Source: an uncultured Verrucomicrobiae bacterium (lineage in GTDB: Bacteria; Chlamydiota; Chlamydiia; Chlamydiales; Rhabdochlamydiaceae). Taken from it: a stretch of 64,000 bases of DNA. Under the pieces are notes generated by a model, which saw only the letters and a program-made list of their open reading frames with translations, was not told where the DNA came from and searched no databases. Shown here piece after piece: positions 14,037 through 16,157 of the stretch (the stretch's first letter is position 1; each line of letters starts with the position of its first letter). The translations under genes and the position numbers were made by a program. The stretch covers positions 160,001 through 224,000 of the forward strand of contig CAWFUG010000001.1 in the NCBI GenBank assembly GCA_963818965.1, in the 5' to 3' direction.

Positions 14037-16157
14037 TTAGATTTTTGTGTTCTTAAGCCTCAGAGCATTCAGGATGACGGAGAGCGAGCTCAGCGTCATC
14101 GCGGCGCTTGCGATGATAGGACTGAGCAGTAAGCCGAAGAAAGGGTAGAAGAGACCAGCCGCAATGGGGATGCCGAGTGTGTTATAAAGAAAAGCAAAGC
14201 AGAGGTTTTGCTTGATATTGCGCATGGTCGCAAGGCTCAAATTGAGAGCCCTTCCGATCCCTCGCAGGTCTCCTTTGACAAGAGCGATCCCTGCGCTCTC
14301 GATCGCGACATCTGTGCCAGAGCCCATCGCAATCCCGACATGCGCTTGAGCGAGCGCGGGGGCATCATTGATCCCATCGCCTGCCATGGCGACGATTCGT
14401 CCTTCCTGCTGAAGTCTCTTGACGATACGGAGTTTATCTTCAGGCAGCACCTCTGCTTCGACCCTATCGATGCCGAGCATTTGGGCAACTGCTTCGGCTG
14501 TTGTCTGGTTGTCTCCCGTGACCATCACGATCTGGATCCCTTTTGCATGGAGTTGAGCAATCGCCTCTTGCGTCGTCGATTTGATGACATCGGAAAGGGT
14601 AAAGACCCCCTCAGGCTTGTCGTCGATGCTAAGGTAGAGAAGCGTTTGACCGGGCAATGGCTCTTGTGGAAAAGTGGTGGATAAATTGGCGAGGAGTTTA
14701 AGATTACCCAGAGCAATCCTCTTCCCAGAGATCCTCCCCACGATCCCTTTGCCGCTGAGATTCTCAAATCCCTCGACTGGGCTTAAATGGAATCCTTTTT
14801 CCTTGGCTTTATCTACGATGGGGACTCCCAACGGGTGTTCGCTTCTCAACTCTAAGCTCGCAGCGAGTTGGAGCAGTTCTTCTTCACTTTTATCCCCTAA
14901 GCTCACACACCGAATCAACTTTGGTTTCCCTTCTGTGAGGGTCCCCGTTTTATCGACGACGAGGGTATTTACCTGAGCCATTTTTTCCAGAGCTTCGGCA
15001 TTTTTAATGAGGATGCCCGACCGCGCCCCTTGGCCGACTCCTACCATGATCGAAAGGGGGGTAGCAAGACCTAACGCACAGGGACAGGCGATGATGAGGA
15101 CAGCGACTGCATTGATGAGAGCATGGGCAAAAACGGGAGGAGGTCCGAAGATTGCCCAAAGGCAAAAAGTGAGGAGAGCGCTCGCGAGGACCGCTGGGAC
15201 GAAGTAGGAGGAGACCCGATCGGCGAGCTTTTGGATGGGAGCTGCACTTCGCTGCGCTTCATTGACCATTTGGACGATCTGAGCGAGCAACGTCTCACTC
15301 CCGATTTTCTCAGCGCGCAGGATGAAACTGCCATTTCCATTTAAGGTCGAGCCCGTCACCTTGTCCCCTTTTTGCTTGGTCACCGGGAAAGGCTCTCCTG
15401 TGAGCATCGATTCATCGACGGAACTCGTCCCCTCTAGGATCACGCCATCAGTGGGGACTTTTCCCCCTGGTCTTACCCGCAATCGGTCCCCCTTTTTCAC
15501 TTCCTCCAAGGCGATGTCTTTTTCCGATCCATCCTCGAGGACGATACGCGCTGTCGTCGGGCTTAAATTGAGAAGTGCCTCAATGGCGTGGCTCGTCTTT
15601 TCTCGCGCGCGCAATTCCAAAACCTGACCCAAAAGCACGAGGACGGTAATTCCGCTCGCCGCCTCGAAGTAAATGGGGAGTCCAGGTAAAAATGCAGCGA
15701 CCAGACTGTAGAGATAAGCCGTCCCCACGCCGATGCTAATCAGGGTGAACATGTTTAATACCAATCCTCGAAAATAACCTGTATTTGAGCGCGTGAAAGC
15801 GCTGGGATTTGACGCAGCTGAAATGCAGGTTATTTTCGAGGATTGGTATAAGTTTCTATAGATGAGAGAGCGCCACCCGCGCACAAAAAACGGCCAGCCT
15901 CCCCAAAGGACAACAGGCGTTGCAAGAGCTGCTTGAATCCAGATAAAAGAGAAAGGTCCCATTGCAAACAAGAGGATCGGCACTGTCAATACCAGTGAAA
16001 CCCAAAAGCGCACCGTCATGCTTCTCAACTCGACATTTTTTTCTTTTTTAGCCGTGACTGTTTGAGGCTCTAAAGCCATCCCACAAAGAGGACAATTACC
16101 CGGCCCTTCTTGTACGACTTGAGGGTGCATGGGACAAGTGTAGCGTGTCGTTTCCAT
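14037..16157 (-). CDS. copA: Copper-translocating P1B-type ATPase with a 31-aa palindromic-element insert
   Basis: [32 protein letters not shown] and MxxSS motifs; insert lies between RNL and NMFTL. Confidence 0.93.
15759..15848. mobile_element. 90-nt short foldback element (family A), in frame in copA
   Basis: 32-nt terminal inverted arms TACCAATCC.../...GGATTGGTA, core GCGTGAAAGC...TTTGACGC, TAA on both flanks. Confidence 0.85.

What the first reader, a model, noticed from the sequence alone, without database searches (positions are those of the whole stretch)
15756..15851. Short (90-nt) family member in frame inside the copper ATPase
Seen: CopA reads RNL-[[31 protein letters not shown]]-NMFTLI. 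The insert is a TAC...GTA hairpin with its own 32-nt arms and the GCGTGAAAGC..TTTGACGC core but no inner stem. It is flanked by a 3-nt TAA duplication (90+3 = 31 codons) rather than TA. Established: xxLNMFTLI is normally contiguous in P1B-1 ATPases. Inference: a second, independent frame-preserving insertion, here in the opposite orientation relative to the gene and in a loop between membrane helices.
Basis: partly seen in the sequence, partly recalled or inferred. Interest (0 to 1): 0.75.

Follow-up and report, generated by a model that had tools for sequence, protein, structure and literature searches.

The report
Mini-transposon inside a copper-pump gene
A 90-base hairpin-shaped mobile DNA element sits in frame inside a bacterial copper-export pump gene and adds 31 amino acids beside the predicted copper entry site; its ends and three-base target duplication match a group of IS630 transposons that likely moves it, and whether the pump still works is untested.

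Summary
Confirmed. A 90-nt hairpin (15759-15848, TAA on both sides) adds 31 codons to copA. A 96%-identical orthologue lacks them and a related contig skips exactly 93 nt. The element is an internally deleted member of a genome-wide palindromic MITE family (5 short copies here). Its arm subfamily duplicates TWA rather than TA (14 of 16 two-ended copies in relatives). Whole IS630-family elements with similar ends (16 of 20 nt) do the same (20 of 24 copies; TNA in 6 of 7 plasmid relatives), so this clade likely mobilises it. No such transposase was found in this 88%-complete genome, and MITE and IS seldom co-occur. The insert is predicted disordered, at the cytoplasmic MB'-M1 junction next to the entry methionine; all motifs are intact and function is untested. 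In-frame palindromic insertions are known (Rickettsia RPE, ERIC). The scan has already noted this family's TA-type in-frame copies in this genome and 3-bp TAA/TTA MITEs in other genomes. New variant of a known kind; interest 0.4.

The parts
15759..15848 (.). 90-nt palindromic MITE (TAC...GTA), internally deleted form of the roughly 155-166-nt family; core runs on the + strand, opposite to copA
15756..15758 (+). left copy of the 3-bp target duplication TAA (TTA = Leu on the copA strand)
15849..15851 (+). right copy of the 3-bp target duplication TAA
15759..15790 (+). left arm (32 nt); its first 20 nt match the ends of the IS630 element in L060 at 16 of 20 positions
15791..15816 (+). family core motifs with the deletion junction where the inner stem was lost
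15817..15848 (-). right arm (32 nt), 30 of 32 positions complementary to the left arm
14037..16157 (-). copA, P1B-1 copper-exporting ATPase, 706 aa with N-terminal HMBD; insert = residues 104-134; TGE, CPC, DKTGT, HP, GDGIND, YN and MxxSS motifs intact

Best explanation
This is a gene-less hairpin mini-transposon (MITE) that inserted at a TTA leucine codon of copA, duplicated those three bases and added 93 nt, and it was likely moved by a transposase of an IS630 clade that duplicates three bases instead of the usual TA. Shown: the insertion and its empty site, the 3-bp duplication, the subfamily-wide TWA flanks, and whole IS630 elements with similar ends and the same duplication. Inferred: the 90-nt form arose by deletion of the inner stem of a roughly 155-nt parent and then spread as a unit; the transposase acted in trans and is now lost or unassembled; the copy survived because 90+3 is a multiple of three and this is one of two stop-free frames of six. 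Predicted: the peptide is a disordered cytoplasmic loop at the MB'-M1 junction that leaves the fold intact, so the pump is probably still active or only impaired in copper loading (about 60%), helped by the apparent lack of a CopZ-type chaperone that would need that platform.
For: Empty site at protein level and DNA level. A sister 90-nt copy at G000 C9:189282 sits in the TAA of another repeat whose uninterrupted form (C1:121727) has one TAA, again +93. Five short copies in this genome share the deletion junction region. Flanks: other arms TA/TA in 79 of 99 two-ended copies, this arm 0 of 5 TA/TA and 3 of 5 TWA/TWA in the same automated list; 14 of 16 two-ended copies in relatives and metagenome contigs are TAA/TAA or TTA/TTA. 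L060 holds a 1155-nt element with HTH and DDE_3 ORFs in two frames, 20 of 20 inverted ends, TTA/TTA flanks, and a 20-nt perfect copy of this arm 19 nt downstream. 20 of 24 unique two-ended IS copies have identical TWA flanks, and near-identical copies in one genome show both TAA/TAA and TTA/TTA in the same orientation. 6 of 7 plasmid homologues fetched are TNA/TNA. Arm identity to the L060 end is 16 of 20, against 6-9 of 20 for four TA-type arms. Model: pLDDT under 50 only at 34-37 and 104-132, pTM 0.76, best matches CopA structures. Derived amino-acid changes are 7 against 7 (10 ties) between filled and empty orthologue. No HMA domain found in the genome.
Against: No IS630 transposase in this genome (completeness 88%). 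MITE-bearing relatives G147, G115 and G159 also show no match to the transposase at E 1e-20, and 0 of 5 IS-bearing genomes match the long MITE. The only co-occurrence is one 1.2-kb contig that ends inside the arm. 4 of 24 IS copies have mixed TAA/TTA flanks and 1 of 7 plasmid copies TTA/TAA; 2 of the 5 short copies here have non-identical flanks. The DNA-level empty site is one low-depth contig. No expression or activity data; the insert abuts the entry methionine, and it is too young (2 differences from its closest sibling) for the lack of decay to show selection.
Confidence: 0.78

Rival explanations
1. The element is a MITE, but it is moved by a non-IS630 enzyme known for 3-bp TWA/TNA duplications (IS5-family IS1031/ISL2 or PIF/Harbinger-like, or ISAzo13/TP36; these target preferences are recalled, not from a call).
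For: 3-bp TWA flanks; bacterial IS630 elements are described as TA-duplicating in the passages read; IS and MITE seldom co-occur.
Against: No DDE_Tnp_4 or ISAZ013 match (where no control rang) in the genome; the three-copy 1.2-kb DDE_Tnp_1 element has unrelated ends; the IS630 clade has both the ends and the duplication.
Confidence: 0.1
2. The duplication is the ordinary TA and the extra base belongs to an asymmetric element end, so the same enzyme moves all subfamilies.
For: TAA and TTA both contain TA; one plasmid copy reads TTA/TAA, which fits TA/TA.
Against: Identical elements in one orientation show both TAA/TAA and TTA/TTA, and plasmid copies show TCA/TCA and TGA/TGA, which contain no TA pair; the arms are only 6-9 of 20 alike between subfamily types and the L060 end.
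Confidence: 0.04
3. The insertion has inactivated copA, and the gene is a very young pseudogene that has not yet decayed.
For: The insert sits at the MB'-M1 transition beside the entry methionine; it is young; family copies are scarce inside long ORFs (24 of 104 copies, against 76% of the genome).
Against: All motifs intact and 7 against 7 derived changes; fold predicted intact; it is the only match above 35% identity in this genome; an RPE-bearing guanylate kinase stays active (passage of PMC2229807). This rival concerns the consequence and is compatible with the best explanation of the origin.
Confidence: 0.35
4. Assembly artefact or a natural variable loop.
For: The best-matching public run shared only 8% of sampled words, so no reads confirm the filled allele.
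Against: Precise 3-bp duplication, two private substitutions, open frame, mid-contig position in a 318-kb contig, and many analogous in-frame copies.
Confidence: 0.03

Closest known systems
Rickettsia palindromic elements (RPE; seen as passages of PMC2229807 and PMC10969869; the primary papers were not read)
   Same: Roughly 100-170-nt palindromic repeats, many inserted in frame in conserved genes and adding a peptide; driver enzyme not encoded.
   Different: Different host lineage; here a clear 3-bp duplication and a candidate transposase clade, whereas the review lists RPE duplication as unknown. Sequence homology to RPE was not tested.
ERIC/MITEEc1/MITEPlu5 and MITEPlu2 with 'CCC-type' and 'AATAA-type' IS630 elements (PMC6267812, section 13 and supplement passages)
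   Same: Hairpin MITEs assigned to IS630 subtypes by their ends, sometimes fused in frame; two end types in one genome.
   Different: Reported there with TA duplication; here one shared core carries either TA-type or TWA-type ends. Whether the 'AATAA-type' equals this clade was not tested.
RUP of Streptococcus pneumoniae with IS630-Spn1 (passages of PMC2229807, PMC3049150)
   Same: MITE inferred to be moved in trans by an IS630 transposase from end similarity and target.
   Different: RUP is TA-targeting and intergenic, and its IS is in the same species.
IS630-family elements annotated ISAli3 and relatives in plasmids
   Same: 47-63% identical DDE domain, TACCA ends, TNA flanks in 6 of 7 fetched.
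   Different: Autonomous; chlamydia-related copies use only TAA/TTA; ISfinder's own duplication entries could not be checked.
Fot/pogo transposons with TAA duplication (passages of PMC7386202)
   Same: Members of the IS630-Tc1-mariner group that duplicate three bases.
   Different: Eukaryotic; relationship to this bacterial clade not tested.

Membership tests
Bacterial MITE | Short (under 200 nt), no transposase gene | tested here: met
   90 nt
Bacterial MITE | Terminal inverted repeats and stable hairpin | tested here: met
   30 of 32 arm positions; z -13.07
Bacterial MITE | Target duplication shown against an empty site | tested here: met
Bacterial MITE | Multiple dispersed copies | tested here: met
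   5 short copies; 240 blastn loci for the whole family
IS630-mobilised MITE | Ends resemble an IS630 element | tested here: met
   16 of 20 nt to L060; 13-17 of 20 to eight chlamydia-related IS ends
IS630-mobilised MITE | Same target duplication as that IS | tested here: met
   TWA in both
IS630-mobilised MITE | Canonical 2-bp TA duplication | tested here: not met
   3-bp duplication; 0 of 5 TA/TA for this arm, so it is a variant, not the textbook type
IS630-mobilised MITE | Cognate transposase in the same genome | tested here: inconclusive
   none found in an 88%-complete assembly; one contig has IS and arm together
IS630-mobilised MITE | Mobilisation in trans shown by assay | not testable with these tools
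   needs a transposition assay
RPE | In-frame insertion of a palindrome into conserved genes | tested here: met
   copA; 21 of 24 two-ended copies inside long ORFs are frame-neutral
RPE | Sequence homology to RPE-1 to RPE-10 in Rickettsia | not tested
   no RPE sequence was compared; filed as RPE-like only
REP/REPIN with RAYT | Y1 tyrosine transposase in the genome | tested here: not met
   PF01797 not found, controls rang in 6 of 14; genome incomplete
P1B-1 copper ATPase | CPC, YN, MxxSS, DKTGT, TGE and family score | tested here: met

The most novel reading that the evidence does not exclude
A widespread bacterial IS630 clade cuts with a three-base stagger (TNA/TWA), unrecognised as such, and one hairpin core has been fitted with ends for both the 2-bp and the 3-bp enzyme in one genome; its 90-nt form is a natural, always frame-neutral 31-codon insertion cassette, and here it produced a working copper pump with a disordered loop on its chaperone-docking platform.
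Probability: 0.25. Interest if true: 0.6.

Novelty: new variant of a known kind. Interest (0 to 1): 0.4.

Why it matters
It gives a protein-invading palindrome a named, testable driver, which the Rickettsia elements lack in the reviews read. It points to a bacterial IS630 clade with a 3-bp duplication, useful for studying how stagger length changes in the IS630-Tc1-mariner group and possibly as an in-frame insertion tool. The filled and empty copA alleles are a natural pair for asking whether the MB' platform matters in a pump with no detectable CopZ. The general phenomenon is known, so the gain is mechanistic detail.

Tried and rejected
Transposase searches in the own genome: Y1_Tnp, DDE_3, DDE_Tnp_4, ISAZ013 and HTH_33 gave no match (no control rang for ISAZ013); tblastn and two profiles from the clade gave none below E 0.15; DDE_Tnp_1 gave 4 matches, and the three-copy element among them has unrelated ends; a scan for family arms enclosing 0.5-3 kb gave pairs of separate MITEs around ordinary ORFs and no evident transposase. 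Length selection for frame neutrality in the TWA subfamily: 7 of 16 relatives' copies are multiples of three, p = 0.43, rejected; the 90+3 fit may be luck. Rfam: 4 matches, all far below gathering score. Co-occurrence of IS and MITE: 0 of 5. Sequencing runs held only 5-8% of the words, so habitat and expression are not claimed. The 20-nt arm was found in 4 of 400 other class genomes at one mismatch. Literature: no description of a bacterial IS630 group with 3-bp duplication or of this MITE in chlamydiae appeared in the listings (listings and abstracts; passages only for the papers cited). ISfinder and PMC186582 were not available, so absence from print is not shown. PMC4853749, PMC3542288 and PMC11544213 (passages) added nothing. 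The host's chlamydial identity comes from earlier scan notes and was not tested here; one related record (L059) is titled Verrucomicrobiae.

Full report
Observation. The window holds a 90-nt element at 15759-15848 that begins TAC and ends GTA, with TAA on both sides. Its 32-nt arms pair at 30 positions and it folds far better than shuffles (z -13.07, 0 of 200). It lies in copA (14037-16157, minus strand), a P1B-1 copper ATPase by NCBIfam score and motifs.

It is an insertion. The 31 extra residues are missing in 19 of 19 relatives' ATPases aligned and in 118 of 119 other listed homologues, one not scorable. The closest, P0002, is identical at 556 of 580 aligned positions and has a clean 31-residue gap. 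One low-depth 250-nt contig, about 95% alike, skips exactly 93 nt at the site. A sister copy nested in the TAA of another repeat gives the same +93 against that repeat's uninterrupted form. So the unit is 90 nt plus a 3-bp duplication.

The family. The genome (2.24 Mb, 88% complete) has 240 blastn loci of a palindromic family, commonest lengths 163 and 166 nt. Of 104 two-ended copies, 24 lie inside ORFs of 200 aa or more, although such ORFs cover 76% of the genome; 21 of those 24 are frame-neutral against 46 of 80 outside (Fisher p 0.007, copies not independent, and some of the 24 may lie upstream of the real start). Host ORFs include aroA, an RNA methyltransferase, plsX and an ABC-2 permease (20 genome ORFs and 2 window ORFs scanned). 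The 90-nt form aligns to the 154-157-nt form with the inner stem deleted, and there are five short copies here; similar 90-94-nt forms occur in three relatives. That the short form spread as a unit is inferred from the shared junction.

The 3-bp flank marks a subfamily. Copies with other arms are TA/TA in 79 of 99 cases; copies with this arm are TA/TA in 0 of 5 and TWA/TWA in 3 of 5 in that list. By hand, the five short copies read TAA/TAA, TAA/TGA, TAA/TAA with the last base missing, GTA/TTA beside another element, and TTA/TTA; the two intact long copies read TTA/TTA and TAA/TAA. In relatives and metagenome contigs 14 of 16 two-ended copies have identical TAA or TTA flanks; 19 of 128 other genomes of the family match the element.

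The likely driver. A scan of metagenome contigs for the arm gave 4 loci. L060 holds a whole 1155-nt element with an HTH ORF and a DDE_3 ORF in two frames, perfect 20-nt inverted ends, TTA/TTA flanks, and a copy of the arm 19 nt further on at the contig end. Its end matches the copA element at 16 of 20 nt, while four TA-type arms match at 6-9. Homologues occur in 31 of 400 class genomes. Among 51 loci examined (3 duplicates, the rest cut or without both ends), 24 unique two-ended copies gave 12 TTA/TTA, 8 TAA/TAA and 4 TAA/TTA; near-identical copies in one genome show both types in one orientation. Of 7 plasmid homologues fetched from 40 listed, annotated IS630, 6 have TNA/TNA flanks including TCA and TGA. 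This makes a true 3-bp duplication much more likely than TA plus an asymmetric end. Against the link: no IS630 gene was found in this genome, three MITE-bearing relatives lack a match, and 0 of 5 IS-bearing genomes match the long MITE. Mobilisation in trans is therefore inferred, at about 0.78.

Effect on the pump. The insert precedes N135-M136; M136 aligns with LpCopA Met148, part of the platform entry site (passage of PMC3847284); the equivalent methionine of AfCopA is placed at the MB'-M1 transition, where CopZ is proposed to dock (passages of PMC9433437). The model has a helix at 88-99, a low-confidence stretch at 104-132 and a helix at 136-156, pTM 0.76, and matches CopA structures best. 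Filled and empty orthologues each carry 7 derived changes, and no HMA domain was found in the genome, so a chaperone-docking defect may cost little (inference). The copy is young, so the intact gene does not prove function; I put retained activity at about 60%.

Comparison with what is known. In-frame palindromic insertions are established for Rickettsia RPE, with one active enzyme tested, and for ERIC (PMC2229807, part 1 of 3 and passages; PMC10969869, passages). MITEs tied to IS630 subtypes by their ends are described for RUP and for Photorhabdus (PMC3049150 passages; PMC6267812 section 13 and supplement passages), with TA duplication. TAA duplication is known in eukaryotic Fot/pogo elements (PMC7386202 passages). 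My searches showed no account of a bacterial IS630 group with 3-bp duplication, but ISfinder was not available and may record it. It works like an RPE; membership of RPE was not tested. It meets the MITE tests and fails the canonical TA test for IS630 MITEs.

Earlier scan notes. Notes on this genome already describe the TA-type family, its in-frame copies and swappable ends; one of them speaks of an IS630 gene in this genome, which I could not find. Two notes on other genomes report 3-bp TAA/TTA MITEs, one with an IS630 driver (seen after my own result). They are leads, not independent support.

Verdict. A real, recent, frame-preserving MITE insertion next to the copper entry site of CopA, belonging to a subfamily likely moved by a 3-bp-duplicating IS630 clade. 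New variant of a known kind; interest 0.4.

Noticed in passing
window 58178-58340: 163-nt TA-flanked family member in frame (+55 aa) in an 834-aa stop-to-stop ORF with leucine-rich repeats (57487-59991, + strand); empty site not checked.
   Followed up: partly
window 18234-18562: Two different family members (164 and 163 nt) head to tail, sharing one TA.
   Followed up: no
window 20298-20385, 40664-40739, 46074-46217: A second abundant palindromic repeat family built on ACCACAGAGA units, with many copies genome-wide.
   Followed up: no
window 31109-31280 and 33010-33060: Repeated hairpin units with shared 24-42-nt arms, a further repeat type.
   Followed up: no
G000 C1:278548 and C9:189282: For 2 of the 5 short copies the left TAA is the stop codon of the upstream ORF, so TWA targeting may favour gene ends.
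   Followed up: partly
G000 C2:99913-100006: Hybrid copy with a TA-type arm at one end and the TWA-type arm at the other, a possible intermediate of arm exchange.
   Followed up: no
L047 1501-1659: A 159-nt long form with the same arm in another genus, in an open frame at the start of a peptidase-like ORF.
   Followed up: partly
L103, L104, L135: IS630-clade copies inserted into the TAA within the end of another element of the same type.
   Followed up: no
G000 C4: The 22-kb contig is almost wholly an inverted duplication of itself and overlaps C12; possible assembly artefact.
   Followed up: no
L032 (G000 C9:99605-100804): A 163-nt copy sits where the sulfate-permease match ends, in a 399-aa ORF; the protein may be disrupted despite the open frame.
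   Followed up: no
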